Source of the DNA: Trypanosoma brucei
Lineage: Eukaryota
Assembly: GCA_000002445.1 (NCBI GenBank)
Contig: CH464491.1
Location: 320,001 to 384,000 of the forward strand
Length of the DNA: 64,000 nucleotides
Direction: 5' to 3'
This document shows, in pieces, positions 1-39,412 of the stretch; position 1 is the first letter of the stretch, and each line of letters opens with the position of its first letter. Below the pieces are notes generated by a model. It was not told the origin of the DNA and searched no databases. It was given only the letters and a program-made list of their open reading frames with translations. Both the position numbers and the translations under genes were made by a program.

Positions 1-1
1 T

Positions 2-859
2 TGGCAGGATGTTCAATTTCATGAAGCTAACCATTCCGTAGCGGAGATGTGGCCGCGAATCGGTGAGTTGTACCCTGAAGGAATCCGAAACTCTGTGTTT
101 CCGGAAATAACACAGCCGGGCGATACTTCATCTGCGCCTGGTGAACTTGGCTATTTAGCACCTTTCATTGCCGCTCTCAGTCAACACCCGCCTCTAATTC
201 ATCGGCTTCTGGAAACGAAAACACATCCCGTTAATGGTCCATATTCTTTCATCTTTTTTGATCCGAACAGCAACCCTGTTCGTGTTGACATTGATGACCG
301 TGTGCCAGTGGATGCGAAGTGTGAGCCCAAGTTTACACGCGTGCCACACCGGTCTTGGTACCCGCTGCTGCTGGAGAAGGCATATGCGAAGTTTGTTGGT
401 GGGTACGCAAAGCTCGACCAGTGCACACCACACGAAACCCTCCGTGATCTAACGGGCCGTCCAGTGCTACATATCCCTTTTGATGATCGACTCGCAGATG
501 CAGCGAATACGGGTGACTTCCGATCTGTGAAATTCTGGAAGGGGATTAAAAGGAACCTCGCGGCTGGAGATGTGATCACATGCATAAGCAACCACGAAAG
601 TGTGGACGGCCTTCACTCTCAATGCAGTTACGCTCTCCTTAGTGTAATCGAAACTGTGCATGAATCGAATGATGTCTCTGACATCGTGATCAAATTACAC
701 AACTGCTACTACGATAGCCCGACATACGACGGCCCACTGTGTAACGATGATGATAACTGGACCGATGGTTTGAAGAGACTTTGCCATTATAATCCTGAGG
801 AGGATGCACTTTACATACCTGTTCCTGTGTTTCTGCGTAACTTCTCGAGCATGCAGCGC
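2..859 (+). CDS. Calpain-like cysteine-peptidase-family protein, 3' part of an upstream paralogue. It is 5'-partial (runs off the window) and 3'-truncated by the scaffold gap.
   Basis: Frame 2 is open from base 2 (WQDVQFHEANHSVAEMWPRIGELYPEG...) and is homologous to the copy-2 segment LGWQDAEFHDRNRHLADDWVRISELYPEG. From ~200 to 859 it is nucleotide-identical to 4299..4958 (offset 4099). It carries calpain domain II motifs (PFIAALS, GPYSFIFFDPNSNPVRV, WYPLLLEKAYAKFVGGYAKL). Confidence 0.7.
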
Positions 860-959
860 NNNNNNNNNNNNNNNNNNNNNNNNNNNNNNNNNNNNNNNNN
901 NNNNNNNNNNNNNNNNNNNNNNNNNNNNNNNNNNNNNNNNNNNNNNNNNNNNNNNNNNN
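860..959. other. Run of 100 N: a scaffold/assembly gap inside a tandem calpain-like gene array. There is one more isolated n at 1011.
   Basis: Literal n characters in the sequence. Flanking sequences are paralogous calpain-like genes. Confidence 0.99.
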
Positions 960-3900
960 ATTCATAAAGAGGCGGAACAGCTACGGAACTTAAAAAGAGA
1001 CCCGCTTCGTNATAAGAGGGAGATAGATGACCTTGTGGAGCAAATGAATAATACTGTTGGTGAACTTGCCCTGAACTTACTACGTAGCGATCGTGACTAC
1101 TTGCATTTGGCTCCTGAGGGAGTACCGATTGAAGAGCTTCCACTGGAGGTCGATGCAAAGTTTTGTGCTTTGGAGGCGGAGCGTGCAATGTTAAAAGGCG
1201 AGAACAACCCGAAGAATGCGAGTATGATATTATCTTTGGAAGAGAAATTAAATGAGCGTGCTCGCCAGCTGGCTCAAGAGCAACTACTGGAAGACCTGAA
1301 GGAATTGAGTTCTTTTCAGCATTGTGTTCCTCTCTCACTTTTATCGCCTCATACTGACGTTCAGTTTGCTGCTGATGTTGCTGAATTTCGACGACTGAAA
1401 AAAGAAGGGGAGCAAAACACCCCTGCCATTCAGGGCGTTGTCGGGAGACTTAACGCACGTGCGAATGAGCTCGCGGAAGAGTATTTGCGTACCGATCGCG
1501 CATCGTATCTTAACCCTGAACAACTTGGTGTGCCACTTGACTTGCTATCTTTGGACACAGACTCTGAGTTCGTGTCACTGGAAGCTGAAAGGCTAAAATT
1601 GTTGTTGGACAGAGATGGTTATGTGTCTTATATTAATGTGTTGGAAACTCGTTTGAATGATAGGGTGCGGGAGCTGTGTCGTCTGAGTCTACTTGATTTT
1701 CCCGAATTTTTGTTGGATGTGTCGAACTTTGGGGTTCCTTTGGAGGAACTGTGCCTCTTCGAGGATGATGGTTATCGGCGTCACATTTGTTCGTGGTACA
1801 AGCTTCGTAGGACCCCGGAGGTTGATAACGAACGCATTTCTTGTGAAGCTTGTATTGTTGAAATAGTTCGGGAAAAAGCAAAATTGTATACTGAGGAGAT
1901 ACTTCGATCTCTTCCTCTCGTATATCGTGGTATACCGCTACGTGATGCCGATTTGTTTCGGAACGATGGTTTTATTAATAGTGTTAAACGTTTTCGGCGC
2001 GCCGTTCGTGAAAAGCGGGATGAGAGTGAGATTGTGGAGGCCGAAGATAATATGAAAAATATAGCATTTGATATAATTGATGGTTTGATTTTAAAGGAAC
2101 GTGGCAGTCTTGACCAAGAGCCGGAAGGAATATCTATCAATAACGTTCCACTTGATTACGACAACGCCTATCTTGAGATGGAAGCAGAACTCCATAGTCT
2201 TTTAAAGCAACAATCCATGTGTGAAGCGGCTTCCATATTGCAACTCCGAAAAGCAATGAACGACAGGGTACACCATCTTGCCCTTATTGAGCTGGCGAAG
2301 ATGAGGACTTTCTTGGACCCTGAGATATTCGGCATACCCATTAAAGATCTTCGTCTTGAAGGTGACATGGACTTCCGGAACGCGGAAATTAGTCGATATA
2401 AAAAATTAAAAAATGAGGCAAATGCTGATGTGAAAGACCTTGAAGTTTTAATGACAGCACGTGCACTTGAGGTAGCGAAGGCTTTTGTTGCGCGAGAGAG
2501 AGCTTTTTTAGAGCCAGAACCACATGGGTTGTTGTTAGAGGAATTGCTTCTAGATACGCATAAGGTGTTTACGGATTTGGAGAGGGAGCGCCGAGTGCTC
2601 CTCAAGGAGCCAGGGTTGTGTGAAAACACTGTGAAAATCAAATCACTGCAGGACAAAATGAGAGCTGTGGTCAACGAGTTGGCGGTAGCGTACGTTGCAG
2701 AGTCCCGTAAGTTCCTAGATCCTGCGCCAGAGGGTGTTCCGCTTGAGGAATTGTCTTTAGACTCGAACGAGCTATTTATTGAATTGGAGAAAAGGCGGTT
2801 TGGGCTCCTGCGGGAGGGGAAGGGAGATGAGGGTAATCTTAAAGATGTCGAGAAAAGTATGCAGGACTGCATTCGTGAGTTGGCTAAGGGGCTTTTGAAG
2901 GAAAATCGTGCCTATCTCAACCAAAAGCCATTAGGTATACCACTTGATTATCTACCCCTCAACAACGACAAGAAGCTCCGTGAATTAGAGAGGAAACGAC
3001 GGGAACTTCTGAATACCTACGATAATGATTCTCCCCAAGTGAAGTCTATAGAGGGGGTGATTATTAAGCGAATTGACAAAATTGCTGCTCGTTACCTTGA
3101 AGGAGAGCGCTCCTTTCTGGATCCTTGTCCACAAACTGTTCCCCTGCGTTACTTGCCTCTTAACGCAGACACCAATTTTTGTTCCCTGGAACAGAGGCGG
3201 AGGGAGCTGCGCAGGGGAGGAGACACTGCCGAAGATGATGCAATGATAAAGGAACTGGAAATTCGTATAAATGATCGCGCTCATGAACTGGCTAAAGAGG
3301 TACTACACAATGGTCGGCTTTTTCTTCATCCTGAAATTCTCGGTGTCGCAGTTTCTGATATTCCTTTGAGTGATCACGAACCGTTTGTTCAACTTGAAGA
3401 AGCTCTGAGAAGAATCAAGGTCGACAACCCAATAAACAGCTTTATGGAGGTTGACCTAAGGGAGAAATTAAAGCAGTGTGCGAGACAGGTAACTGAAAAG
3501 ATGCTCGATGAAGAACGGAGTTTCTTGGATCAAAATCCTTTGGGTATTCCACTGAACAGTTTGATGCTGAATTATGACCCGAAAATGCAAGAACTCGAGC
3601 GAGTGAGAAGGAAGAAACTGCGGGATAAAGTGGACGCTAACGAGGAGGAGAGGGAGATGGTGAGGCGCGTCAACGAGATGGCGGAGGAGGAATTACGCCG
3701 TCAACGTATGTACCTTCCGGCCACACCATTGGGAATCCCATTCCAGTACTTGGGTCTTGACAGCGATGGGAAATTTGGCCAAATGGAAAATTTTCTACGC
3801 ACATTGAAAAGGGATCCTCTGTCGAAAGAAAAAGCGATTCGTGATCAGGAGAACGCAAATAGGCAGTACGTATTTAGAACGGCAGCGGAATACAAACGAA

Positions 3901-5993
3901 GGGAGCGCGCGTATCTTAACCCCGAGCCTAATGGAGTTTCCCTTAAGCGGCTATCCCTAGATACTGATCCCAAGTTTCAGAAGTTAGAACAAATGAGAAG
4001 AATGCTGATGCATAGCTCTGATTCAAATGATGCCCAAATTGGTCATTTGGAACATTTGGCTAACGAATATGTGCTTCAACTCGCTTTGCAACAGCTCGGG
4101 TGGCAAGACGCAGAATTCCATGACAGAAATAGGCACCTCGCAGACGATTGGGTGCGCATTAGCGAACTATACCCTGAAGGTAAATACGTACCCTTTGAAC
4201 CCACAAAAGCTAACGGTTGCTCGGTTGTCTCCGCGCCCAACGACGCAAGTTACCTGGCACCTTTTATCGCCGCTTTGAGCCGCTGTCCAGATATGCTAAG
4301 GCAATTATGTGATACAACATCACATCCCGTTAATGGTCCATATTCTTTCATCTTTTTTGATCCGAACAGCAACCCTGTTCGTGTTGACATTGATGACCGT
4401 GTGCCAGTGGATGCGAAGTGTGAGCCCAAGTTTACACGCGTGCCACACCGGTCTTGGTACCCGCTGCTGCTGGAGAAGGCATATGCGAAGTTTGTTGGTG
4501 GGTACGCAAAGCTCGACCAGTGCACACCACACGAAACCCTCCGTGATCTAACGGGCCGTCCAGTGCTACATATCCCTTTTGATGATCGACTCGCAGATGC
4601 AGCGAATACGGGTGACTTCCGATCTGTGAAATTCTGGAAGGGGATTAAAAGGAACCTCGCGGCTGGAGATGTGATCACATGCATAAGCAACCACGAAAGT
4701 GTGGACGGCCTTCACTCTCAATGCAGTTACGCTCTCCTTAGTGTAATCGAAACTGTGCATGAATCGAATGATGTCTCTGACATCGTGATCAAATTACACA
4801 ACTGCTACTACGATAGCCCGACATACGACGGCCCACTGTGTAACGATGATGATAACTGGACCGATGGTTTGAAGAGACTTTGCCATTATAATCCTGAGGA
4901 GGATGCACTTTACATACCTGTTCCTGTGTTTCTGCGTAACTTCTCGAGCATGCAGCGCTGTCACATAAACTGTGGCGACCGTCTGACTGCGCCTGGTGAG
5001 TGGACTGGGGTAAGCTGTGGAGGAAACCCGAAGTTCACAACTTTCCGGAACAACCCCATCTATCTTGTGGAAAACAAAACCTCCCGTCCCGTTACCATTC
5101 TTGCTGAGCTGCGGCATCATGCGCCAGCATACCGTGACCCTGACGATGTAAATCACTATCACCAGTCTGGGCTTGCACTGCTAAAGGCGATAAACACGCG
5201 TATGCCTGTGAGTCCGATCTTGACAAGTGTGACACACCGCTTTTTGCATAGGGGCATGATGTTGGATGCACGGGAGGTGTGTGCTCAAATGGAGTTGCCT
5301 CCGAGTACCACGTGCTATCTCGTCCCATATACGTTGGGTCGTGAGAACTATGGAAAGTTTCACATATCTGTGTACCCCGGTCTTGCAAAGGTGAATCTTG
5401 CCCCTCTTCGAACTGCGGCTCTCTTTGCCTCTCCTGTTGTTATTTCTATGTCGTTGAAAACGGAACTGCGGAACGGTGTGAAGGTTGAGTTTGTTGTGAG
5501 CAGAGCATGTGATGCTCATGTTTTGCTTTGTCAGAGACGACCAAAGGTTATTGATGTATGTAAAAGTGATTTACTCGGTGATTTCAGTGTTAACATGGCA
5601 GTTTATGATGAAAATGGAATCCTGTTGATGAACACAGGGGAGCCTAGGAATGCGCGGGAGGTTGCGGTTTCCTTCCGAGTTCCCCAGCAAGGTTTGTATT
5701 CTGCTGTAATTATGGCTCTTGGCGTGGATCGCCGAGGAAATCATAGAGGATGTCCCTGCCACCTAACGATATTTACGTCGAAAAAAGCGAAAGTGAGACT
5801 CCTTGGTACGGTCCCTAATTTTCCCAGGCGTGCAACACCAAGAACCTCTATCCGAAGTCAGTCAGCGGAAATCATGACACCAGTTAGTTTAACACCAAGA
5901 GACGGTCCCAAAACTGCAGGTTCGTTTCATTTGCCGTATATTTCCGGTGGACAGTCAACGACAGACTCTCCTTTTGTAATGGGCATAAAATGA
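960..5993 (+). CDS. Large calpain-like protein with a central array of ~68-aa repeats and a C-terminal inactive calpain core (domains II+III). Similar to the H49/ClpGM6-type cytoskeletal calpain-like proteins of trypanosomes. The 5' end is lost in the gap.
   Basis: One continuous ORF from the gap to the TGA at 5991-5993. It has ~15 units with consensus (F/Y)L(D/N)PxPxG(V/I)PLxxLxLDxDxxFxxLExxRRxL at ~205-nt period. A calpain-like region follows (4140-5990) with the catalytic Cys and His positions substituted. The ORF-track start at 804 is an artefact of reading through the Ns. Confidence 0.8.
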   Translation: MHKEAEQLRNLKRDPLRXKREIDDLVEQMNNTVGELALNLLRSDRDYLHLAPEGVPIEELPLEVDAKFCALEAERAMLKGENNPKNASMILSLEEKLNERARQLAQEQLLEDLKELSSFQHCVPLSLLSPHTDVQFAADVAEFRRLKKEGEQNTPAIQGVVGRLNARANELAEEYLRTDRASYLNPEQLGVPLDLLSLDTDSEFVSLEAERLKLLLDRDGYVSYINVLETRLNDRVRELCRLSLLDFPEFLLDVSNFGVPLEELCLFEDDGYRRHICSWYKLRRTPEVDNERISCEACIVEIVREKAKLYTEEILRSLPLVYRGIPLRDADLFRNDGFINSVKRFRRAVREKRDESEIVEAEDNMKNIAFDIIDGLILKERGSLDQEPEGISINNVPLDYDNAYLEMEAELHSLLKQQSMCEAASILQLRKAMNDRVHHLALIELAKMRTFLDPEIFGIPIKDLRLEGDMDFRNAEISRYKKLKNEANADVKDLEVLMTARALEVAKAFVARERAFLEPEPHGLLLEELLLDTHKVFTDLERERRVLLKEPGLCENTVKIKSLQDKMRAVVNELAVAYVAESRKFLDPAPEGVPLEELSLDSNELFIELEKRRFGLLREGKGDEGNLKDVEKSMQDCIRELAKGLLKENRAYLNQKPLGIPLDYLPLNNDKKLRELERKRRELLNTYDNDSPQVKSIEGVIIKRIDKIAARYLEGERSFLDPCPQTVPLRYLPLNADTNFCSLEQRRRELRRGGDTAEDDAMIKELEIRINDRAHELAKEVLHNGRLFLHPEILGVAVSDIPLSDHEPFVQLEEALRRIKVDNPINSFMEVDLREKLKQCARQVTEKMLDEERSFLDQNPLGIPLNSLMLNYDPKMQELERVRRKKLRDKVDANEEEREMVRRVNEMAEEELRRQRMYLPATPLGIPFQYLGLDSDGKFGQMENFLRTLKRDPLSKEKAIRDQENANRQYVFRTAAEYKRRERAYLNPEPNGVSLKRLSLDTDPKFQKLEQMRRMLMHSSDSNDAQIGHLEHLANEYVLQLALQQLGWQDAEFHDRNRHLADDWVRISELYPEGKYVPFEPTKANGCSVVSAPNDASYLAPFIAALSRCPDMLRQLCDTTSHPVNGPYSFIFFDPNSNPVRVDIDDRVPVDAKCEPKFTRVPHRSWYPLLLEKAYAKFVGGYAKLDQCTPHETLRDLTGRPVLHIPFDDRLADAANTGDFRSVKFWKGIKRNLAAGDVITCISNHESVDGLHSQCSYALLSVIETVHESNDVSDIVIKLHNCYYDSPTYDGPLCNDDDNWTDGLKRLCHYNPEEDALYIPVPVFLRNFSSMQRCHINCGDRLTAPGEWTGVSCGGNPKFTTFRNNPIYLVENKTSRPVTILAELRHHAPAYRDPDDVNHYHQSGLALLKAINTRMPVSPILTSVTHRFLHRGMMLDAREVCAQMELPPSTTCYLVPYTLGRENYGKFHISVYPGLAKVNLAPLRTAALFASPVVISMSLKTELRNGVKVEFVVSRACDAHVLLCQRRPKVIDVCKSDLLGDFSVNMAVYDENGILLMNTGEPRNAREVAVSFRVPQQGLYSAVIMALGVDRRGNHRGCPCHLTIFTSKKAKVRLLGTVPNFPRRATPRTSIRSQSAEIMTPVSLTPRDGPKTAGSFHLPYISGGQSTTDSPFVMGIK
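1096..4130 (+). repeat. Coding tandem repeat array, ~15 degenerate units of ~204-207 nt (68-69 aa).
   Basis: Recurrent FLDPEPxGVPLEELxLDxDxxFxxLExxRR blocks beginning near 1100, 1305, 1510, 1715, 1920, 2125, 2310, 2505, 2710, 2915, 3115, 3320, 3525, 3715 and 3910. Confidence 0.75.
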
Positions 5994-8167: not shown

Positions 8168-9166
8168 ATGCAAGGGCAAAACCAAGCAGCAGTGGATGGC
8201 ACTATGGCCTACACCTTTCAGCACCCACCACAGGGGTTCTTACACGCACAATACAGGGATCCTCACAGCAGTGTAGGCCGTAAGCAATATGCCAATATTA
8301 TGCATGACCGTCGTGTGTATCGCGGGAATACGTACGCCGCCGTGCCCATGTCAACATATGCGCGAGACGAGGAAGAGCGAGTGGTTCGCGAGGCAAACAG
8401 ACGTCGCAAGGAACTTCAGCAGCGGGCCACTTCTATAAAGCGTCGTAAAGAACTTGACGCAGCCCAACGGAAACTTGCGACTCCGCCCCCCGTTGTTGGA
8501 CGGCAGCACATAGAAGTACAAACGGAGGAATTCCTCGAGGAACTGAAGGATGAGGTGGAAGTGGTTCAGCAGGAAACACAAACTGATCCCCTTCTCGACC
8601 GCCCTGCGACACCACCGTATGTTCCTGTAAAGTCTGGTCGTGATGCGGAGTCGCAAATTAATGAAGGAGATTTGTTTCACTTCGACGACGCCGTTGACCC
8701 GATTCTCGATGTTATGGTTGGAAAGACACTTGAACAAGCGATGTTGGAGGTATTGCAGGAGGAAGAACTGGAACTTCTGCGGCAGCAGCAACTGGAGTTT
8801 GAGCAACGACGCAAGGAGGAGTTACTGGAGGCACAGCGACTTGAAGCTCGTGAGAAACGCCTCTTTGAGGAGAAGGAGCGGCGGAAAAAGCAGGAAATCG
8901 AGCGCATCAAGCGCGAGAAGGCTACACGTGAGAAGCTCCAGGCCCGTCAGTTTGCCAAGATGTATTTAATGAACCTCGAAAACCGTGTCTTTGCAAGGCT
9001 TCAGGATGAGGGCTGGTTTCGTGATCGCGTATTACACGAGGTGGAGTTTGACTTCTTCCCGTGGCTCATGGATCAGGTCGCGGTGGAACTTGAAAAGAAG
9101 CAGCGGGCGCGTGTGTTGGTAGACGATCTCATTCGCCAAGTAGTTGCCATACAGTTGAATAGCTGA
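8168..9166 (+). CDS. RSP3: Radial spoke protein 3 (axonemal radial spoke stalk/AKAP).
   Basis: Carries the motif ANIMHDRRVYRGNTYA, characteristic of RSP3 (Chlamydomonas NIMFDRRVVRGNTYA). An acidic/coiled-coil C-terminal half follows, as in RSP3. The ORF is ATG-initiated and 332 aa. Confidence 0.8.
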   Translation: MQGQNQAAVDGTMAYTFQHPPQGFLHAQYRDPHSSVGRKQYANIMHDRRVYRGNTYAAVPMSTYARDEEERVVREANRRRKELQQRATSIKRRKELDAAQRKLATPPPVVGRQHIEVQTEEFLEELKDEVEVVQQETQTDPLLDRPATPPYVPVKSGRDAESQINEGDLFHFDDAVDPILDVMVGKTLEQAMLEVLQEEELELLRQQQLEFEQRRKEELLEAQRLEAREKRLFEEKERRKKQEIERIKREKATREKLQARQFAKMYLMNLENRVFARLQDEGWFRDRVLHEVEFDFFPWLMDQVAVELEKKQRARVLVDDLIRQVVAIQLNS

Positions 9167-9170
9167 GATA

Positions 9171-9185
9171 TAAATAAATAAATAA

Positions 9186-9218
<33 letters not shown>
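9171..9218. repeat. (AAAT)6 followed by an (AT)~14 microsatellite, immediately 3' of the RSP3 stop.
   Basis: The tract aaataaataaataaataaataaatatatatatatatatatatatatatata is seen directly. Confidence 0.95.
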
Positions 9219-9220
<2 letters not shown>

Positions 9221-10292
9221 CATATGCATAAATAAAATATGTGTATTTACATGTATTTATTCACTTTTTCTACTGTTGGAGAGGTAAAAGGAGAGTATGC
9301 ACTGACCAACGGCTAGTGCTGTGGTTAAGCGGCACGATACAATGAAGGGAAGCGAAGGAGGAGCGGGATATCGTCGGCCCGCAACCGGTTAGAGCAGAAA
9401 TAATGAATGAAAGACACGTGAGAAGGAAAGAGGATGTTAGATGTTAATCTTTTCCTTTAAGCGATTCCATCCTCTCTTCTGCTGCACTCTCTACTTGTAC
9501 GATGTCAATTTCTCACTCCTTCAACTTTTTAGGCTTGTGAATTTGCTCGCTATTTTTATCATCCTTTTTGTTTTTTTGTGTGTGTTTGTGGTTGTCGCCT
9601 TTCTTCCTACAGTCACCGCCCCCCTATTCGCTTCTCTTTCGGATCACGCTCTCCTTCTCGTCATTTGAGCATATGTCACCGCCAGTGTTATTGGCATGTT
9701 TCAGAGAGTTAAACCATTTCAAACTTTCTTTTTACTGCAGACGCTGTGTAGAACGGTTAGAGACAAGTTTATGGTTGGAAATGGCGAGAAACTTATTGTT
9801 GATCTTCTTACGGTGCTGCTGCTTCCGCAAATAGTTGTTTTACTCGCCGTTTTCACATGAGACTGTTTTGTTTCGTTTTTTGCAATTTTCTCACCAACAG
9901 TCGCTGTTGTCGTTGCGTGTGCGAAGTCATTTTTTTTTTTTTTTGATTCGTGCCGTGTCGTGTTCGGTCATATTTTCTTTGTGTGTGCTTGTGACGTCTT
10001 TTCTTCGTTCCGTCTCATGTAGTTGAAGCTATTGAGGGAACAAGCGAATACGTAAAGCACTCGTGCACAAAGAAATCTTTAAAGGAAAAACGAAAGAGAG
10101 AAAAAACACGTGTCAGCTCTTGAGGTAATTCAGAGAGGCTACATGTATATTTATAGCAGTTCTGTCACTACCAAGATTGCCATGCACGTGAAGAAGAAAA
10201 AAAAAGGAAACTGAGGGGTACTTGTATATTGAGGGATGATAATTAGGAGGGGGTGAAACATGAGGCAGCACCTTCATGTTTAATATAAGAAT

Positions 10293-10326
<34 letters not shown>

Positions 10327-11049
10327 CTTATTTAAAAAAAAACTCTTAGCCTCTTCTATTGTGCTCCTCTCACATCTACTCTCCTTCGGTACCTTTACCT
10401 TACCCTCGCTTTCTTTTTTCTTTTTTTTTTCTTTTTTTGTTTGATTTGTTTGATTTGTTTGACTGAGTGTTTTCTATTGGTGGTGTTGTTGTGGCGGTTG
10501 TTGTTGTTTGGCACTCTACTGTCGTGCACCGGATGTGTCTCATTCTAGAAAAGAAATCAGTTTTTTTTATTCAATATACATATATGTATATATCTTTTAT
10601 TTGTCCATTTTATTGTTATTATTATTTTTGGGGGGAGTGTGGGGGGAGAAATGTCATTGTAGAAGCCATCGCTTGTGGTTGCTGGTTTCTTCTTCCTCCA
10701 CCCCCAGTGCACGATATGTTGATGGTGCTATGAAATTCTCTGTTAGCCGGTTAACGTAATTTTACATCCCCTTCTTCTTCTTTCCCCCTCGGTCGTTTCC
10801 GCTACTCGCATTTCATTCCAGTTATATACGCTACGGTTTGAGATACTCAACCGCTTCCTGCATCGCGAACCTGCAAGCGGAAGAAGCAAGCTCGAAAAAG
10901 GGAGGTACAAAAGGGTTTGCTTCAAGAACTGTTGTTTTTTTTTTTGCTACAAGTTGTTGACCGACACCAGGACACAAAAAAACCGGAGAATCACCGTCTT
11001 AGCCGTTCCGAGTTTCAAAAAAGGAAATCAAAAAAAAAAAGGCGGTAGT

Positions 11050-20897: not shown

Positions 20898-22247
20898 ATG
20901 AGCACCTCAATTGAGGGAGACAATTGTGGTATATGTTTCACTTCGATTCATCCTCAGTGTAACCCACGTGGAAAACTGAATAGTTGTGGACACATATTTT
21001 GTGCATATTGTATTAAGAAGTGGGCGGAAAGCACAAATGTCTGCCCTCATTGCAAGGCAAGATTTACAACCATTACGGTGTCAAATACCAAAGGTAAAAA
21101 TGAAGTAAAGAAGGTTCGAAAGCGAAACTACAAACTATGGGAATTAAGTGATTCGGAAAGTGAGGGTGAGGGCGGTGAAGCCCTGGCACTGCCACGCGGT
21201 TCGGTGCGATGTGGCGTTTGCGGTGAAGGCGACAACGCCATTCGTATGATTTTTTGCGACCGCTCCCAATGTGACTATACCGTTCATTTGGATTGTGTTG
21301 GGATGTCCGACAGGCCATCTGAGTTCTTTTGTTCCGAGTGTCGTGCGATGTTCGGGGAAGGGGAAACTTCAACATGTCCGCCACCCAACGTCGGAAAGGA
21401 TCGCAGTTGTAACCCAACAGAATATAACGGCAGTAGCTCCTCGCCCAGTTCTAATGTTTGTGCGCCTGCTCCTTCACCTTGCACAACTACAGCGAGGAAA
21501 ATTAGTGTCCCACCGCCGGCATTTCTCCGAGAGGCAATGGAGCGATCCGCTGGGAAGAGGCTAAGAGACGCTAATGTGGAGAACCGCAGTGAAACGCCGG
21601 TCATGCCGCGCCGAAACGCAAATGACTGGAGTCCTGAAGGCGGATATGTAAATGTCGACAACGGCACCATCAACCACGCAGCACAAACCGCGATGCAGCA
21701 ATATCTTCAACGTATGGAGCAACGCGCGCATAGGGAGAAACTTCAATGCGCACACCGCCCCGCGCAACGGCAAGGAGGGGGAGACTGTTTGCGTCAAAAT
21801 ACCCAACTGCGTCTCGATAGAAGGTGCGCTCAGGTCAGGTCTGCTGCAAATGCTGCTGAAATGGAAGCGCTTCTCAATCCGATAACACGGCAGCGTGAAG
21901 AGGAGAGACTTGCAAGGCAACTGGCTAAGGACCTGATGCCCGTGCTTCGCCGCAATCAGTACCTTAAAGACAACCGATTAGTGTTGGACAGTGACGGGTG
22001 TGTGGTTATGAATCCGCCACCGTCGGAACTGGAGGCTTCTGGACGTGAAGCTGAATTGTACAGTCAAGCCATGGTGGAAGGGCGGCGCATGGCTCAGCAA
22101 CGCATTAGTGCAAAGGTGGCAAGTGCACGCCTTCGGAAGGAACAATTACTCATGATTCAGGCAGAAAGGGAGGCTCTTGCGCTTAACCAGCTGGCGATGA
22201 TGATTGCCTCACGTCGCACCGGGGGGGGGGATCCGAAGGTTGACTGA
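20898..22247 (+). CDS. RING (C3HC4) plus PHD zinc-finger protein, PHRF1-like.
   Basis: The RING is CGICFTS...CGHIFCAYCIKKW...CPHCK. The PHD is CGVCGEGDN...IFCDRSQCDYTVHLDCVG...FFCSECR. The first ATG is 20898. The 3' end contains a G10 homopolymer (22220-22229) just before the stop. Confidence 0.7.
   Translation: MSTSIEGDNCGICFTSIHPQCNPRGKLNSCGHIFCAYCIKKWAESTNVCPHCKARFTTITVSNTKGKNEVKKVRKRNYKLWELSDSESEGEGGEALALPRGSVRCGVCGEGDNAIRMIFCDRSQCDYTVHLDCVGMSDRPSEFFCSECRAMFGEGETSTCPPPNVGKDRSCNPTEYNGSSSSPSSNVCAPAPSPCTTTARKISVPPPAFLREAMERSAGKRLRDANVENRSETPVMPRRNANDWSPEGGYVNVDNGTINHAAQTAMQQYLQRMEQRAHREKLQCAHRPAQRQGGGDCLRQNTQLRLDRRCAQVRSAANAAEMEALLNPITRQREEERLARQLAKDLMPVLRRNQYLKDNRLVLDSDGCVVMNPPPSELEASGREAELYSQAMVEGRRMAQQRISAKVASARLRKEQLLMIQAEREALALNQLAMMIASRRTGGGDPKVD
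22220..22229. repeat. G10 homopolymer inside the last codons of the RING-PHD gene.
   Basis: caccggggggggggatcc seen directly. Runs of this length are prone to length errors and slippage. Confidence 0.9.
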
Positions 22248-22782
22248 TTTTGTGATATCCTATCCGAAATTTTATTATTTTTGGTGAGTGTGTGGAGCTG
22301 GAGTAAGGACTCCATGATTTTTGTCTTTTTTTTTCTTGGTGGATGCTGCTGTTACTTCTCTACCGCAGTTGTTTCGGTTTTTTTTGTTTTTTGAAAAGTC
22401 AGTTCGTTGATACGACAAATTACTTTGAGGTTTTTTTTTTTAAAAAATGGAAGCAGACACAACAATTATTAAGCGAGGTTATTGCGAGAGAGCCTATACA
22501 TTACATGTATACGTTTGTGCGTGTTTAATTGATTAAGTTGCAGTTGGTTGTGTTGCGTCACTTAGATTATTATGTTGTTTTGTTGATGTCTGAATAGTCA
22601 TTACCATATTGCGTTCTACTCTTGCACTGCTGTCCGCTACTTTCACTCCGCTTCGTGATCAACTTTGCTATTTGCTCCATTTACAATATCAAATATGTAC
22701 CAATATTGAAGAACTGCTAGGTTTGTATCACTAAAGAACAGATAGTGAGATCAAACAGAAGGGCAGTAATCCATCACCCTTC

Positions 22783-24627
22783 ATGGGAGACAGTGTGATA
22801 CCCCATCACACGGTGGTGCAGTGTATTTACTCATTTTTAAAGGCACATGGGTACAAAAACTCACTTCTCGCCCTGCAGAGCGAGTCCCGTGTGCCGTATA
22901 ATACCATTGATGTTGTTGAGATTGATGAAGCAAGCAAAGACACACCGTGTGTGAACCCGAAGTCACTGGAGCGCGCAGTTCTAGGAGGCAAATGGGACGT
23001 TGTACTCCACAATTATGTGGATACTTTGTTACTCCCTGAGGAGATTGTTTTTGCTCTCTATGAGCTCATATTTGAGGAGCTGCTGGCGTTGGGAGGGTTT
23101 GTTCATGCGGCGCGTGCTTTGTTTACATCTTCGCCGGTGTTTGCCAACATGAAGCGCTCTTCCGGCGCCCGATACGCTCGGTTGGAGCGAATGCTCGCTT
23201 CTTTCAAAAACGAAAACATTAACGACGTAGGAACTGGAGGAACTGAAGTGGTTCCTCGCCATCTTATGGAGAAGCGTGAGGCATTGTTGAAAACCTTACA
23301 GGAAGCTATCACTTGGAATGAAGAACCATACGATGGTGCTCTCCCCGCAGCGTTATGCCGGATGTTCAGTAATGATGGACGTATTGGTGGGCCCCCTTCA
23401 CAGCAATCGACCATGGCGAAAGGGAATGATGCTGTAAGCGTTGGTGATGCCTCAGCAGTTTGTGCTCCTACCACCTTTTTGCGCTATCCGCTTTGCTGCC
23501 CAAAGAAACTCAAAAGCCAAACGCTACCTGGGGGCGGAAGACCATCCGCTTGCATCGTCACACCTCTGTCCAGGAGTGGAGGGGAACAAAGGAAGTTTAC
23601 TGCCCTCGTTGTTGGCACGACTGACGGTGTAGTTAATATTCTTGATGCTGAATCTGCGGGTCCTGTGGAAGGTTCTGTCAAACACACCGATGAGGTTTTG
23701 AGTGTAACCGTGGACGCAGGAGCGGACGGCGGCGTTGCATGGGTTGCGGTTGGGTATCGGGATGGTTGGGTGAAGATTTATAACACAGAGACTAGGAAGT
23801 TGGTGCGCCGTTTCACACAAGTCCACAGTGGGGGCGTAACGTCTGTTGTTTTTACTGGGTCAAGGGCGCCTGAGCTTTTTGGGCACCGGACGCACCTTGT
23901 TTCGGGATCATACGATGGCAGCGTGCAGCTCCTTAACATTCTTAGTGGGGTTTCGCTTCAGCGTATCGGTGATGCACATCATTCCAAGTATGTGTTGTCC
24001 TTGTGTGGGATTTGTTCGGAATCTAGCGAGGATTACCACGTCGTGTCGGCTGGGAATGACGGCGTTCTTTGCTTCTGGAGCTTCTCCGAAGAAAAAATCC
24101 AGCGAGTGGGACATCCGCGAGCGTTGACGACAATTCATGCCGCCTTGAGGGATGACATTCCAACCCGGTTGCTGCCTATAGATGACAGTGGGACAACGAA
24201 GGAAATCTTGGTTCTTACCCGCGGGCAGTGGGCGCTGGTGCTGAGTACCTGTTTTACAAATAACTCAGCGGAACCGCTTGTACTAACACTCCACTGCACC
24301 ATTTACACTCCTCGACCGATGTTTGGCGGTTGCTTGAGGGTTGTGAATACTCCGGCGCAACCGGAGCCTATGTTGACCGTCTTTCTAACTGATAGAAGTG
24401 GTACCATTATACTTTACAATATTGAAATGAGGTGGCGCGGGTCTACTACTGTTGGTACAACCAAGGAATTTCGTCCTGTCGATGAGAGCTCTATTGTGGT
24501 GATAGAACACGGAAAGACTGTAGAAACTCTTAACGTAGCATACGTTCCGGGGAAGCTCGACAATCTTTTGGCTTATTCCCCTTCGATTCCTGCCATGTAT
24601 CTTCTTTCGTGGGAAGCAGAGGCGTGA
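22783..24627 (+). CDS. LisH-CTLH-WD40 repeat protein (WDR26/SMU1-like).
   Basis: N-terminal LisH (VVQCIYSFLKAHGYKNSLLALQSE) and CTLH (LERAVLGGKWDVVLHNYVDTLLLPEEIVFALYELIFEELL) motifs. Multiple WD-like blades follow (GSYDGSVQLL, SAGNDGVLCFWSF). The ORF is ATG-initiated. Confidence 0.65.
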   Translation: MGDSVIPHHTVVQCIYSFLKAHGYKNSLLALQSESRVPYNTIDVVEIDEASKDTPCVNPKSLERAVLGGKWDVVLHNYVDTLLLPEEIVFALYELIFEELLALGGFVHAARALFTSSPVFANMKRSSGARYARLERMLASFKNENINDVGTGGTEVVPRHLMEKREALLKTLQEAITWNEEPYDGALPAALCRMFSNDGRIGGPPSQQSTMAKGNDAVSVGDASAVCAPTTFLRYPLCCPKKLKSQTLPGGGRPSACIVTPLSRSGGEQRKFTALVVGTTDGVVNILDAESAGPVEGSVKHTDEVLSVTVDAGADGGVAWVAVGYRDGWVKIYNTETRKLVRRFTQVHSGGVTSVVFTGSRAPELFGHRTHLVSGSYDGSVQLLNILSGVSLQRIGDAHHSKYVLSLCGICSESSEDYHVVSAGNDGVLCFWSFSEEKIQRVGHPRALTTIHAALRDDIPTRLLPIDDSGTTKEILVLTRGQWALVLSTCFTNNSAEPLVLTLHCTIYTPRPMFGGCLRVVNTPAQPEPMLTVFLTDRSGTIILYNIEMRWRGSTTVGTTKEFRPVDESSIVVIEHGKTVETLNVAYVPGKLDNLLAYSPSIPAMYLLSWEAEA

Positions 24628-26778: not shown

Positions 26779-27166
26779 TGTGCTTTATTTTAACTTGGCC
26801 GTTACTTTTCTAAATACCTTCCCGTGTCACTTTCCATGTGCTATTCTCATTACTGAGCGTAACTCACGTTTCTGACGTTACCGCTAGCTTTTCATGGATG
26901 AATGTGACGGAAACTGAAATCTTACGTGACTTATCTTCTGCTGCGTCTTCGTTGAACTACCGTTGTCGCTATCATACATTGTGCCTTTACCCTCACTTTA
27001 TGTGTTTTGTTAAGTTTCGGCTTCGTATGCGCCCCTATTAAACCTTTACCCTCCGCTTTCTGTCTTCTTGTTACGCACTGTTTTTTCCCCCTCTCGTTTT
27101 TTTCTTTGCTTTCTCATCGTTGTTATATTGCCTTTGCAATTTTTTTTAAAAAGAAGGTACCTCATT

Positions 27167-29509
27167 ATGTCGGATTTCGTCGATATTAATGTGAATACGC
27201 AGCCGGCCAGGGCGAATACCATCAGTTGGTTTGACGCAATTAGCCCTGGACGTGCCTCCCGGGTTGTAACACCTGCCACTTGTCCTCCACCCAGCAGCAC
27301 AAACATGTCCACAAAGGAAATACGCCAGAGTGACCTTGCGGTTACACAACGTCATCAGGAAAATGACCTCACCGTTTCGACAATATGTTACGACGACGAA
27401 AGTAACAGCTCACTGTTAAGGCGCTTAAACTCCACAGTAACGCCACCTCGTCCGCATACTAATTTAACCGATGGCGAAATGGGCACTTCTGTGGTCCTGG
27501 GTGAATATTCTACCGCTGCTGCCGCATCGCCACAACGACGGATGGTGAGTTCAGGAGCCGTTCCTCGTTCGCGTAGGCGGTGTGATGACATGTATGAGGA
27601 AGCTGTTCGAGGGAAATTGGCTAAAAGGCAGTGGGCTGCCGCCGAGCAAATTCGGCAATCGATTCTCGAGAGAGCGCGTATTGAGCGGGATTGCACGTTC
27701 CAACCTCAACTCTCCCCATATGCAAAAAAATTACACCGCCCTTCTCACCTTGCACCGGAAAACCGCATTTATGAAGAGCTTATGCGAAAGAGTGAATGGC
27801 GTGCACAGAAGCAAAAGGAGCACATTGAGGATGAGTTGAAGGGTTGCACTTTTCGACCGCTGACTGTGCAAGCAGCTAAGCTGAAATCATCGGCTCATGT
27901 ACGTGACTCTCATATCTTTAGCGAGCTCTATAATCACCATGAAGAGCAGCAATACTTTCGCGACGAACTTCGCCCGCGCGTGGTACAGCATTTGGAACAG
28001 CAAATACTGTACAAAAACCCATCCAATAAAATAGTCTCGGAGAACAAGATGAGTGAGGTTGTGGAGCGACTTATTTCCCGGGGCGCCATTGTACAGGCCG
28101 ATCGGCAAAGGGCGAAAAGCGCTGCTATTAGTTCTGAGACATTCAAACCAGCTATCAGCACCAAGTCGGAGCGTATTGTCTCACGACAACAGGATGCCGG
28201 TTTACTGTCGGAGGATGTGTTGGAACGGTTAATGAATCCGCCAAAGACGATGTCGCAGGATCGGTGTCAGCGCCGTGAACGTGAAGAAAAGTTATTTGAT
28301 GAGGATTTCAAGGAGATATGCTCCGAGTATTTGAAAGGTGTTCGCGTTTCGTTGCGGAAGGAATTAGAAAAGAACTTTATCTCCGCCAAATTCGATGCAT
28401 TGGCAGATTACATTCATAGAGAAGAACCCGATTACAAGGGATGTGACAGTCGTGTTGACAAGTACCCCATCAAACAACTGTTGAAGGCTGCTGTTTCTAT
28501 TCTCTCAGCAGAAGAGGGAGATGAGTTGGTGCACATACTAACACACAGTAGGTCTCCCGCTCTCAACCGAAAGGGATTTGTTACTCTGTGTCTGAAGGCT
28601 TTAGCAGTGGTTGAAGACCCACGCAGTAGTGCTCTGGCATCACTACCACCACCCCCTTCTAATTCAGGAAATGGAAACCGCACCGGATTTGTCGATAACA
28701 CCGACAAGAATCGTAGGGATCATTTGAACCGCTTGCGCCACAACATGTCACCCGAGGAAGTTGCGGCCATAAAGGCAAGCGCATTGGAGCGGCAGCAACG
28801 GCGCACTGAGGAGGAACTGCAACGGCAACGTGCAAAAGAAGAGGAAGAGATGAGGGAATGTACCTTCCGACCTCAGACAACCAGAAAAATACCACGTGAA
28901 TGTCGTTCTGGTCGGTACACAAACGTGAGGATCACCAAGGGGGAGATGCTCCGCCGAGCGCATATTCGAAAATCAAGGACTGAAAGCGTGGAAACCCCTA
29001 GTTTAGACCTACCAATTCCTCTGGTGAGGGATATATTTAAAAAACTAAAGATTCCAACAGCGTTTCCTTCACCGCAACGCAGAGCGCATAGCGCCGGTGC
29101 ACACCCTGGCGTTTGTGGGAAGCACCGCCAGATACGTACAACGGCCGTGTTGAAGTCACCCAAACAGCGGGTGAAATCCACGAGCAGACGAAGCAGAGCA
29201 GAAGGGGACCAACAGGGCGTTGCTACGCGTGCCGCTTCTGCCGTCGATAAAAAGAGTCATTTCCCAGCAAAGTCAAAGGGTAAAGAAGAGGCCGCATGTG
29301 CAGCAGTTCCGTCTGAACAAAGTTCGGAGGATGCTGCTGAAACTTATACCGGCCGCTCGTTTGATGGCAACCCTTGGCCAAATGCAGGAGCCCTGTTTCG
29401 TGATGCGGCTTCTGAGCATGGCGTTTTTGGTGGTGAGGGAGCGCTCACTGATCTTGGAAGGCAGCTGATTTTACAGCAACTGCGCGAATACAGAAGTAGG
29501 CAACGGTAA
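27167..29509 (+). CDS. Hypothetical protein with three dispersed (D/E/G)CTF(Q/R)P motifs and basic/charged low-complexity regions.
   Basis: 780-aa ORF. The motifs are IERDCTFQPQ, LKGCTFRPLT and MRECTFRPQT. The first ATG is 27167 (MSDFVDINV). Upstream ORF-track sequence (27068-27166) is a translated pyrimidine tract. Confidence 0.5.
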   Translation: MSDFVDINVNTQPARANTISWFDAISPGRASRVVTPATCPPPSSTNMSTKEIRQSDLAVTQRHQENDLTVSTICYDDESNSSLLRRLNSTVTPPRPHTNLTDGEMGTSVVLGEYSTAAAASPQRRMVSSGAVPRSRRRCDDMYEEAVRGKLAKRQWAAAEQIRQSILERARIERDCTFQPQLSPYAKKLHRPSHLAPENRIYEELMRKSEWRAQKQKEHIEDELKGCTFRPLTVQAAKLKSSAHVRDSHIFSELYNHHEEQQYFRDELRPRVVQHLEQQILYKNPSNKIVSENKMSEVVERLISRGAIVQADRQRAKSAAISSETFKPAISTKSERIVSRQQDAGLLSEDVLERLMNPPKTMSQDRCQRREREEKLFDEDFKEICSEYLKGVRVSLRKELEKNFISAKFDALADYIHREEPDYKGCDSRVDKYPIKQLLKAAVSILSAEEGDELVHILTHSRSPALNRKGFVTLCLKALAVVEDPRSSALASLPPPPSNSGNGNRTGFVDNTDKNRRDHLNRLRHNMSPEEVAAIKASALERQQRRTEEELQRQRAKEEEEMRECTFRPQTTRKIPRECRSGRYTNVRITKGEMLRRAHIRKSRTESVETPSLDLPIPLVRDIFKKLKIPTAFPSPQRRAHSAGAHPGVCGKHRQIRTTAVLKSPKQRVKSTSRRSRAEGDQQGVATRAASAVDKKSHFPAKSKGKEEAACAAVPSEQSSEDAAETYTGRSFDGNPWPNAGALFRDAASEHGVFGGEGALTDLGRQLILQQLREYRSRQR

Positions 29510-34559: not shown

Positions 34560-34662
34560 GTTTTTTTCACTTCCCTCATTTCTCATCGGACAGTTGCGTT
34601 TGCATTCTTTTCTTTTCTTTTTTTCTTAATTGTATTCCCCCCTCCCCCTTGGCACTGAAGTT
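34560..34662 (+). promoter_or_regulatory. Example poly-pyrimidine tract plus AG, a putative spliced-leader trans-splice acceptor region, upstream of the membrane-protein CDS.
   Basis: ttttttttcacttccctcatttctc...tttcttttcttttttttcttaattgtattcccccctcccccttggcactgaag precedes the first ATG at 34693. Comparable tracts precede every CDS in the window. Confidence 0.4.
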
Positions 34663-34692
34663 AGTGTATGGGAGGAAATAGTTGAGAATACA

Positions 34693-38803: not shown

Positions 38804-39412
38804 ACAGCTTTGTTGAGGTCTCCATTATCTAGTTGAGAGATTTTTTATCGTAATAGTGTAGTCATTATACGCAGTTTATATTTGTTTCCCCTCCCCCAGA
38901 GGTTTATGTGTAATGGTCACACGACAGGAGAGCACAACGTCTGTGCGAATATATGGTGTACTGTTCCCGTTGGAGCAGTTGTTGGGAGACAGAGAAGTGC
39001 TACGGAAAGGAAAGGGGTCACACTCTGGAAGTCGAAAATGAAGTAAGTACCTTCATTGTCTATGGTTTGAAGGTGGTGGATGAGTGGGATCTGTCCCCCC
39101 TTGTCGCCTTGTACGTGGGGATTTTCTTGCCACTATTTCACACAGTCTTTTTTTTTGCCTTTACCTGAGATACTTGGTTGCCTCTTCTACATTGAATACT
39201 GTTCCGCGGTTGAATAGTAAAGACGCAGTCGAAGTGGGCTTCAATAGTGTCATCAGTTACTAAGCGATCATCTTGCTTACAATATCGGAAACATCTCCGA
39301 CTGAAGCCAACACAGACAGAAAAGGCTCGGCGTATCGTGAATACCATTGTGACTCTTATTTACGGCCGCTTCAGTCTACATCGGCAGTCTTCAACGTTGA
39401 GACGTGCCAGTA

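What the first reader, a model, noticed from the sequence alone, without database searches (positions are those of the whole stretch)
1..5993. Tandem calpain-like paralogues with identical 3' ~660 nt and a scaffold gap
Bases ~200-859 are nucleotide-identical to 4299-4958 (offset 4099; the minus-strand ORFs 199..591 vs 4250..4690 and 467..661 vs 4566..4760 encode the same peptides). Upstream of that block the two copies diverge at protein level (GIRNSVFPEITQPGDTSSAPGELGYLAPF vs GKYVPFEPTKANGCSVVSAPNDASYLAPF). Copy 1 ends in a 100-N gap exactly where copy 2 continues into calpain domain III. The junction of divergent N-terminal parts with identical C-terminal parts suggests recent gene conversion within a tandem array, or an array partly collapsed by assembly. 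True copy number and the 5' end of the repeat-bearing gene are unknown.
Basis: seen in the sequence. Interest (0 to 1): 0.6.

Follow-up and report, generated by a model that had tools for sequence, protein, structure and literature searches.

The report
Two giant calpain-like genes, collapsed gap
The window holds the tail ends of two neighbouring giant calpain-like flagellar genes of a Trypanosoma brucei-group parasite. They share an identical, copy-pasted stretch, and about 13 kb between them was lost in an assembly gap, so this is a real but ordinary feature of a locus known to assemble badly.

Summary
Window 222-859 is base-for-base identical to 4321-4958 (638 nt, offset 4099). Positions 1-221 differ from 4100-4320 at 114 sites. 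Bases 860-959 are 100 N. The coding strand is +, not -.

Both copies are catalytically dead calpain modules (Peptidase_C2). Copy 2 follows about 15 degenerate 68-aa DUF7623 (GM6-type) repeats and ends at the stop at 5991-5993, 2.2 kb upstream of RSP3.

In a gapless T. equiperdum assembly, window 1-859 maps at 99.8% to the C-terminal module of a separate upstream giant gene. That gene runs on to its own stop, an intergenic spacer and the start of the next gene. The 100-N gap therefore stands for about 13.1 kb.

There the identical tract is 1,090 nt with sharp edges, between flanks only 25-50% identical in protein. That pattern indicates gene conversion. The two genes also share an 11.8-kb block at 99.9%. 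Both contig ends at the gap stop about 640 nt inside a shared block, as expected when assembly breaks on repeats.

The family (ClpGM6) and its assembly problem are already published, so interest is low to moderate.

By-product: the locus seems to hold three giant paralogues. This questions the published pairing of Tb927.11.1090 and Tb927.11.1100 as two ends of one gene.

The parts
1..859 (+). Fragment of the C-terminal calpain-like module (domain II, catalytically dead) of the upstream giant paralogue, here called gene #1. It is cut off at the contig end.
   Evidence: The frame is open over 2-859, with Peptidase_C2 at E 1.1e-21. It is 99.8% identical to L009 19295-20153. There it is preceded in frame by a DUF7623 repeat and followed by Calpain_III, a stop at L009 21149-21152 and a spacer.
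1..221 (+). Copy-1-specific start of the module (WQDVQFHEANHSVAEMWPRIGELYPEGIRNSVFPEITQPGDTSSAPGELGYLAPF...).
   Evidence: It has 114 mismatches to 4100-4320 with no gaps. The same junction is found in T. equiperdum IVM-t1 (L009) and at the head of the T. equiperdum OVI contig L003.
222..859 (+). Visible part, in copy 1, of the gene-conversion tract. It is identical to 4321-4958.
   Evidence: 0 mismatches in 638 nt.
860..959 (.). 100-N scaffold gap standing for about 13.1 kb. By the T. equiperdum assembly, the missing sequence is about 1.0 kb of gene #1 tail with its stop, about 0.9 kb of spacer, and about 11.2 kb of the N-terminal calpain modules and repeats of gene #2.
   Evidence: Window 859 corresponds to L009 20153 (record position 295613). 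Window 960 corresponds to L002 2792 (record position 308717). Both lie on the same contig, CM010682.1, which has no Ns in these loci.
960..1605 (+). Last 646 nt of a long block (11.77 kb in T. equiperdum) that is 99.9% identical between genes #1 and #2. The right-hand contig starts inside it.
   Evidence: Window 960-1605 matches both L009 13927-14572 and L002 2792-3437. L009 11136-14572 equals L002 1-3438 at 99.88%, and L009 2805-4832 equals L009 22136-24161 at 99.9%. The spacing is 11,767 nt in both genes.
960..4100 (+). About 15 degenerate 67-68-aa DUF7623 (GM6-type) repeats of gene #2.
   Evidence: Pfam finds 14 DUF7623 stretches at E 4e-191. A G[VI]P motif recurs every 63-68 aa. No DNA-level tandem repeat is detected. 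The near-perfect GM6 unit and its peptides are absent.
4101..4320 (+). Copy-2-specific start of the C-terminal calpain module of gene #2.
   Evidence: It is homologous to 2-221 but strongly diverged.
4321..5410 (+). Full gene-conversion tract (1,090 nt, 363 codons) in copy 2. It covers most of calpain domain II and much of domain III.
   Evidence: L009 19516-20605 equals L002 6153-7242 at 99.9%, and window 4321-5410 equals L009 19516-20605 at 99.5%. The protein alignment is identical across the core.
5411..5993 (+). Diverged C-terminal tail of gene #2, with the stop codon at 5991-5993.
   Evidence: The tail is only 0-53% identical to the gene #1 tail in 30-aa bins. The ORF ends at 5993.

Best explanation
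The window begins inside the C-terminal calpain-like module of one giant gene (gene #1). After a scaffold gap, it resumes inside the repeat region of the next giant gene downstream on the same strand (gene #2, the one directly upstream of RSP3).

Both genes belong to the kinetoplastid ClpGM6 family of inactive calpain-like cytoskeletal proteins. Their layout is N-terminal calpain modules, a long run of 68-aa DUF7623/GM6-type repeats, and a C-terminal calpain module.

The two C-terminal modules are old paralogues, with flanks only 25-50% identical in protein. A 1,090-nt stretch of one has been copied over the other by gene conversion, that is, non-reciprocal homologous recombination between tandem copies. 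A second, much longer shared block (11.8 kb at 99.9%) covers the N-terminal parts.

These shared blocks are longer than the sequencing reads, so the assembler could not pass through them. Each contig stops about 640 nt into a block. The scaffolder then joined the two contigs with 100 N, which hides about 13.1 kb.

Shown directly: the identity and its edges, the domains, the coding strand, and the mapping onto a gapless contig.
Inferred: conversion as the mechanism, the size of the gap in this particular strain, and cytoskeletal (flagellum attachment zone) function by homology.
For: Identity and sharp 5' edge. The 3' edge and the 1,090-nt length.

Strand and domains.

Copy 1 maps to a separate upstream gene that has its own Calpain_III, stop and AT/T-rich spacer, followed by a new N-terminal Peptidase_C2 module. 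Copy 2 and the repeats map 13.1 kb further along the same contig.

The long shared block has identical spacing in both genes. The contig ends lie 638 nt and 646 nt inside shared blocks.

The copy-1-specific junction is present in three independent assemblies: the window, IVM-t1 and OVI.

A T. cruzi PacBio contig shows the same order: repeats, C-module, spacer, then the N-module of the next gene. RSP3 synteny is kept in Angomonas.

Flanks of copy 1 are closer to T. congolense, T. theileri and T. cruzi orthologues (64, 62 and 55% identity before the core) than flanks of copy 2 (46, 45 and 49%). The two modules are therefore old, distinct lineages.

There are no synonymous differences in 212 codons in the window, and 1 difference in 1,090 nt in IVM-t1, next to saturated flanks.
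Against: The only gapless reference is a hybrid MiSeq plus low-coverage PacBio assembly. It was polished with Pilon, merged with Metassembler, and ordered into chromosomes (PMC6395869). It carries single-base frameshifts, for example at window 3647. False joins or false duplications in this locus cannot be excluded, and polishing could have homogenised the repeats.

That reference is a different strain from the window, so the hidden length in the window's genome is an extrapolation.

I could not read 6.3 kb between L009 and L002. Its content is inferred from the equal spacing.

Hayes et al. 2014 (PMC4121973) concluded from Southern blots that there is a single gene at this locus in T. brucei.
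Confidence: 0.85

Rival explanations
1. One gene only. Window 1-859 would be the N-terminal calpain domain, and 4101-5993 the C-terminal calpain domain, of a single ClpGM6-type gene. The gap would hide just a collapsed repeat array, as in the published single-gene model of the T. brucei locus.
For: ClpGM6 is described as having calpain-like domains at both ends of a repeat core, and as being split into two gene models by an assembly gap (PMC4121973; PMC9981465). The whole of 1-5993 is open on one strand apart from the gap.
Against: On the gapless contig, the 1-859 segment is preceded by DUF7623 repeats. It is followed by domain III, a stop codon, about 0.9 kb of non-coding spacer and a fresh start.

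The real N-terminal calpain modules of these genes have a quite different sequence (Peptidase_C2 at E 2.6e-70, two copies plus Calpain_III). They do not match window 1-859.

The frames on the two sides of the gap also differ.
Confidence: 0.04
2. Assembly artefact. Only one C-terminal module exists, and 1-859 is a misplaced or chimeric contig end, or a second allele of the same gene placed in tandem.
For: The segment abuts a scaffold gap, and its last 638 nt duplicate sequence 4.1 kb away. The T. b. gambiense scaffold of the same locus lacks it within 10 kb upstream and shows a duplicated overlap at a second gap.
Against: Positions 1-221 form an intact in-frame coding sequence that differs from copy 2 at half of its bases. 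That is far beyond allelic divergence.

The same junction recurs in two other assemblies.

Its flanks resemble orthologues in other species more closely than those of copy 2 do.

In IVM-t1 both modules sit 17.1 kb apart on one contig.
Confidence: 0.05
3. The identical tract reflects very strong purifying selection on the calpain core, or a very recent duplication of just this piece, rather than gene conversion.
For: The core is the best conserved part of the module across species: 73% identity to T. theileri against 45-62% for the flanks.
Against: Selection on the protein does not remove synonymous differences, yet there are none in 212 codons.

The same core is only 53-73% identical to full-length orthologues in other genera and species, so it is free to change.

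Inserting a duplicated piece in frame at exactly homologous edges of an existing paralogue is operationally the same thing as conversion.
Confidence: 0.05

Closest known systems
ClpGM6 of Trypanosoma brucei (gene models Tb927.11.1090 and Tb927.11.1100; Hayes et al. 2014, PMC4121973)
   Same: Same chromosomal locus and same protein family. It is a giant calpain-like protein that lacks the catalytic triad, with 68-aa GM6-type repeats between calpain modules. Its assembly is broken at the repeats. The repeat-bearing gene in the window begins within a repeat, possesses a stop codon and is the downstream model, just as the papers describe for Tb11.47.0036/Tb927.11.1100.
   Different: The near-perfect 204-nt GM6 units and the antibody peptides KASDSRSFLDPMPE and ERRKLIAEDREGN are absent from the window and from genes #1 and #2. 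In the gapless assembly they sit in a third gene further upstream. The literature treats the locus as one gene. Here at least two, and probably three, genes are seen.
Tandem giant calpain/DUF7623 genes of T. cruzi Dm28c (PRFA01000019.1) and the RSP3-linked gene of Angomonas deanei (LR877149.1)
   Same: Same domain order. In T. cruzi the same tandem layout is seen: repeats, C-terminal module, spacer, then the N-terminal module of the next gene. In Angomonas the DUF7623 plus Peptidase_C2 gene sits directly upstream of RSP3.
   Different: I did not test whether the copies in those species share identical conversion tracts. Sequence identity to the window proteins is only 39-72%.
Concerted evolution by gene conversion in trypanosomatid tandem gene arrays (general knowledge, not tested here)
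   Same: Patches of identity with sharp edges between tandem same-strand paralogues in one polycistronic unit.
   Different: Here conversion acts on patches inside very large, otherwise old and diverged genes, not on whole short repeated genes.
Leishmania tandem calpain-like genes at the ClpGM6 locus (LmxM.27.0490 is cited as the ClpGM6 orthologue; the neighbouring .0500 and .0510 genes are from my memory only)
   Same: A syntenic group of several large calpain-like genes, which would make a multi-gene array ancestral.
   Different: Not examined with the tools. No Leishmania sequence was retrieved.

Membership tests
Calpain superfamily (Pfam Peptidase_C2, MEROPS C2) | Domain II (Peptidase_C2) match above the curated cut-off | tested here: met
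   77.6 bits for 2-859 and 73.2 bits for the copy-2 module, against a cut-off of 23.8.
Calpain superfamily (Pfam Peptidase_C2, MEROPS C2) | Catalytic triad Cys-His-Asn | tested here: not met
   In the alignment to calpain 9, the catalytic His (GHAYSV) falls on Cys in SQCSYALLSV, while the Asn is kept. The Cys position (GDCW) reads ELGYL in copy 1 and DASYL in copy 2; that alignment was made by eye only. These are therefore pseudo-proteases, as published for ClpGM6.
Calpain superfamily (Pfam Peptidase_C2, MEROPS C2) | Domain III (Calpain_III) after domain II | tested here: inconclusive
   21.6 to 21.8 bits against a cut-off of 21 for the equivalent T. equiperdum sequences, which is only marginal. 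The window's own copy-2 protein gave no Calpain_III row at E 0.01 or better.
ClpGM6 / GM6-repeat calpain-like proteins of kinetoplastids | Array of about 68-aa GM6-type (DUF7623) repeats in frame with a calpain module | tested here: met
   14 DUF7623 units at E 4e-191, followed in the same ORF by Peptidase_C2.
ClpGM6 / GM6-repeat calpain-like proteins of kinetoplastids | Near-perfect (90-100% identical) GM6 repeats carrying the published epitope peptides | tested here: not met
   Neither peptide is present, and the 204-nt unit gives no BLAST hit in the window, L002 or L009. TRF finds no array. The units are present in T. b. gambiense L010 and in the upstream gene in T. equiperdum L011.
ClpGM6 / GM6-repeat calpain-like proteins of kinetoplastids | Calpain modules at both the N- and the C-terminus | tested here: inconclusive
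   The C-terminal module is present in the window. The N-terminal part is hidden in the gap. It is present in the T. equiperdum equivalents of genes #1 and #2.
ClpGM6 / GM6-repeat calpain-like proteins of kinetoplastids | [quoted passage not shown] | not testable with these tools
   This needs tagging or RNAi specific to each paralogue.
Gene-conversion tract between paralogues | A run of identity with abrupt edges inside otherwise diverged homologous sequence, silent sites included | tested here: met
   0 differences in 638 nt next to 114 in 221 nt in the window. 1 difference in 1,090 nt in IVM-t1, with both edges sharp.
Gene-conversion tract between paralogues | Both copies present in one genome, in cis | tested here: met
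   Both lie on contig CM010682.1, 17.1 kb apart. Both are also in the window.
Gene-conversion tract between paralogues | Strain-specific variants shared by both copies (continuing homogenisation) | tested here: inconclusive
   Block position 248 is A in both window copies and G in both IVM-t1 copies. Only that site is informative for both genomes, and consensus building or polishing could produce the same pattern.

The most novel reading that the evidence does not exclude
The T. brucei-group locus upstream of RSP3 holds three separate giant calpain-like genes in tandem, not one.

Gene #0 carries the near-perfect GM6 array and has its own C-terminal module. Genes #1 and #2 carry only degenerate repeats and are mosaics of shared and private blocks.

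If so, the accepted pairing of Tb927.11.1090 (N-terminus) with Tb927.11.1100 (C-terminus) as the two ends of ClpGM6 is wrong. Reagents aimed at the N-terminal region or the calpain core may then hit up to three proteins, because the N-terminal regions are 91-99.9% identical between genes.
Probability: 0.55. Interest if true: 0.45.

Novelty: already known. Interest (0 to 1): 0.3.

Why it matters
For genome annotation, the 100-N gap must not be bridged into one gene model. The two sides belong to different genes and are in different frames, and about 13 kb is missing.

For trypanosome cell biology, ClpGM6 is a key determinant of flagellum attachment zone length and cell shape. If the locus encodes two or three near-identical giant paralogues, then earlier RNAi, tagging and Southern results need re-reading. 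So does the assignment of the C-terminal gene model, and the paralogues may have separate roles.

As a general finding it is ordinary. Gene conversion between tandem paralogues, and assemblies that break on the converted blocks, are both well known.

Tried and rejected
1. My first hypothesis was one ClpGM6-type gene whose N- and C-terminal calpain domains are the two copies. I rejected it once window 1-859 mapped behind repeats and ahead of a stop codon on a gapless contig.

2. I looked for DNA-level tandem repeats in 960-4100, L009 and L002 and found none. The repeats are visible only at protein level.

3. I looked for the near-perfect GM6 unit and the antibody peptides in the window. They are absent.

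4. The first protein search, with 2-859, returned only 3 distant hits. It missed proteins that contain the identical 212 aa, such as P0004, so negative results from that tool are weak.

5. I tried to read the unseen stretches of the T. equiperdum contig (record positions 270500-275460 and 299622-305925) through a locus-derived protein.

6. I tried to identify the source assembly of the window through an exact protein look-up and found nothing on record. The RSP3 look-up gave only near-identical relatives: T. b. gambiense, two T. equiperdum assemblies and some short Logan contigs.

7. The supplementary figure of Hayes et al. with the Southern design is not held.
Full report
**What is in the sequence.**
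A position-by-position comparison at offset 4099 shows that window 222-859 and 4321-4958 are identical (638 nt). Positions 1-221 differ from 4100-4320 at 114 sites, right up to position 221. No other copy exists in the 64-kb window. Bases 860-959 are 100 N, and there is a single N at 1011.

The coding strand is +. One frame is open over 2-859 and another over 960-5993, ending in a stop at 5991-5993. They lie antisense to a strongly supported + strand gene and mean nothing.

**What the pieces are.**
- Pfam places a calpain protease domain (Peptidase_C2) on 2-859 (E 1e-21).
- On the long ORF it places 14 DUF7623 repeats (E 4e-191) followed by Peptidase_C2 (E 2.5e-20).
- The repeats recur every 63-68 aa. 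They are too diverged for a DNA tandem-repeat finder.
- The catalytic His of calpain is replaced by Cys, and the catalytic Cys position is also substituted (by eye). These are therefore inactive calpain-like proteins.
- All large ORFs of the window are on the + strand. Downstream lie RSP3 (8168-9166), a Vps18-like gene, a Plus-3 protein, a kinase and others. This is a trypanosomatid polycistronic unit.

**Source.**
An exact look-up of the RSP3 protein found the locus in three NCBI assemblies:
- T. b. gambiense DAL972 chromosome 11;
- a chromosome-level T. brucei equiperdum assembly (GCA_003543875.1), probably strain IVM-t1;
- T. equiperdum OVI.

The window is 98-99.8% identical to these but is none of them. 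It is therefore a T. brucei-group (Trypanozoon) genome.

**First hypothesis, rejected.**
The literature describes ClpGM6 as one giant gene with calpain-like domains at both ends of a 68-aa repeat core. In the reference genome it is split by a collapsed repeat into Tb927.11.1090 (Tb11.57.0008) and Tb927.11.1100 (Tb11.47.0036) (PMC4121973; PMC9981465). I therefore expected 1-859 to be the N-terminal calpain domain of the same gene. It is not.

**Mapping onto a gapless contig.**
In the T. equiperdum assembly the loci have no Ns. The mapping is as follows.
- Window 1-859 matches L009 19295-20153 at 99.8%.
- There it is preceded in frame by a DUF7623 repeat. It continues through Calpain_III to a stop at L009 21149-21152.
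- Next come about 0.9 kb of T- and TA-rich non-coding sequence, then a new start with an N-terminal Peptidase_C2 module.
- Window 960-9182 matches L002 2792-11015 on the same contig.
- In record coordinates, the two sides of the window's gap are 13,103 nt apart.

So copy 1 is the C-terminal module of an upstream gene (#1, about 18.4 kb). Copy 2 is that of the next gene (#2, about 16.2 kb, of which only the last 5.0 kb is in the window).

The frameshifts that split these genes into several calls in that assembly look like single-base errors. At the one frameshift that falls within the window (3647), the window has an intact frame.

**The shared blocks.**
On the gapless contig the identical tract is 1,090 nt, with a single difference (L009 19516-20605 against L002 6153-7242). 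At protein level the two modules are 23-67% identical (30-aa bins) before the tract, identical for 363 residues, and 0-63% identical after it.

The flanks of copy 1 are closer to the T. congolense, T. theileri and T. cruzi proteins than the flanks of copy 2. The modules are therefore old paralogues, and the tract is a later overwrite, which is gene conversion. Protein-level selection cannot explain the absence of silent differences.

Genes #1 and #2 also share a block of 11,767 nt at 99.9%. The seen parts are L009 2805-4832 against 22136-24161, and L009 11136-14572 against L002 1-3438, with identical spacing. Its last 646 nt are window 960-1605.

**Why the gap is where it is.**
The left contig ends 638 nt inside the calpain tract. 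The right contig begins 646 nt before the end of the long shared block. The T. b. gambiense contig begins only 70 nt further in. Contigs that die about one read length into a repeat are the expected signature of assembly breaking on repeats. This also argues that both shared blocks exist in the window's own genome.

**Independent support.**
- The copy-1-specific junction heads the T. equiperdum OVI contig, which then falls into copy-2 sequence after a small gap.
- A PacBio contig of T. cruzi shows the same tandem order: repeats, C-module, spacer, next N-module.
- In Angomonas deanei a DUF7623 plus calpain gene sits directly upstream of RSP3.

**By-product.**
The near-perfect 204-nt GM6 units are absent from the window and from genes #1 and #2. 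In T. b. gambiense, at least 48 units are joined to the gene #2 fragment only through a 100-N gap. In the T. equiperdum contig, at least 66 units lie in a third gene further upstream (#0), where:
- the array starts 4.9 kb after the gene's ATG, which fits the position of the RNAi fragments of Hayes et al.;
- the N-terminal region is 91% identical to that of gene #1;
- the gene has its own C-terminal DUF7623 plus Peptidase_C2 call, ending 2.5 kb before gene #1.

If this is right, Tb927.11.1090 and Tb927.11.1100 are not two ends of one gene.

**Caveat.**
If the contig is indeed IVM-t1, that assembly is a MiSeq plus low-coverage PacBio hybrid, polished and merged (PMC6395869). I could not read 5 kb at the end of gene #0 or 6.3 kb inside gene #2. 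Hayes et al. report Southern blots consistent with one gene.

**Verdict.**
This is a known gene family at a locus already known to be mis-assembled. The mechanism, gene conversion between tandem paralogues, is ordinary. Interest is low to moderate. The possible three-gene structure of the ClpGM6 locus is the only point a specialist might want to follow up.

Noticed in passing
L011 3438-21773, L009 1-24161 and L002 1-7825 (T. equiperdum CM010682.1, record positions 248727-313750): There appear to be three tandem giant calpain/DUF7623 genes. The near-perfect GM6 array (at least 66 units of 204 nt, about 98% identical to the T. b. gambiense unit) lies only in the first one, which has its own C-terminal calpain call. 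This conflicts with the published pairing of Tb927.11.1090 and Tb927.11.1100 as one gene.
   Followed up: partly
L010 9899-9998 and 14587-14686 (T. b. gambiense FN554974.1): The DAL972 scaffold joins the GM6 array to the gene #2 fragment only through a 100-N gap. A second 100-N gap has the same 830 nt (window 4788-5617) on both sides, which is an unmerged overlap inside the calpain module.
   Followed up: partly
L003 1-341 (T. equiperdum OVI, contig end): The contig head carries the copy-1-specific junction and the shared block. From about position 260 it accumulates differences, and at 303-331 it reads sequence unlike either window copy, just before a 10-N gap. This could be a third module variant or a local misassembly.
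   Followed up: no
window 469 and 4568 (block position 248): Both window copies have A where both T. equiperdum copies and the T. b. gambiense copy have G. This could mean continuing homogenisation of the two copies within each genome, or it could be an effect of consensus building or polishing.
   Followed up: partly
window 859/860 and 959/960: Both contig ends at the gap lie about 640 nt (638 and 646) inside blocks shared by the two genes. That is about one capillary-read length, which suggests a Sanger-era or reference-scaffolded assembly.
   Followed up: partly
L002 about 5480 (equivalent to window 3647); L009 about 9700, 14130, 19080, 22700 and 23250: The T. equiperdum gene calls are split by frame changes. 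The one that can be checked against the window is a single missing G. These look like sequencing errors rather than pseudogenes.
   Followed up: partly
window 9153-9244 and 10279-10350: There are (TAAA)n/(TA)n microsatellites in the spacer between RSP3 and the Vps18-like gene. They form an imperfect inverted pair about 1.1 kb apart. The BLAST alignments to other strains break at 9182-9222, so the length varies between strains.
   Followed up: no
window 6000-64000: All convincing genes are on the + strand, forming one polycistronic unit. They include RSP3, Vps18-like, a Plus-3 domain protein, a protein kinase, a RING-PHD protein, a WD40 protein, a DUF4470/DUF4471 protein and a copper-type P-type ATPase with HMA domains (39404-42298). 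Several large ORFs have no Pfam match (27068-29509, 30886-32232, 34630-35940, 36179-38803, 59621-63091).
   Followed up: partly
tool behaviour: The word-indexed protein search with the 286-aa calpain fragment missed proteins that contain an identical 212-aa stretch (for example P0004, found). Absence of hits from that tool should not be read as absence of relatives.
   Followed up: no
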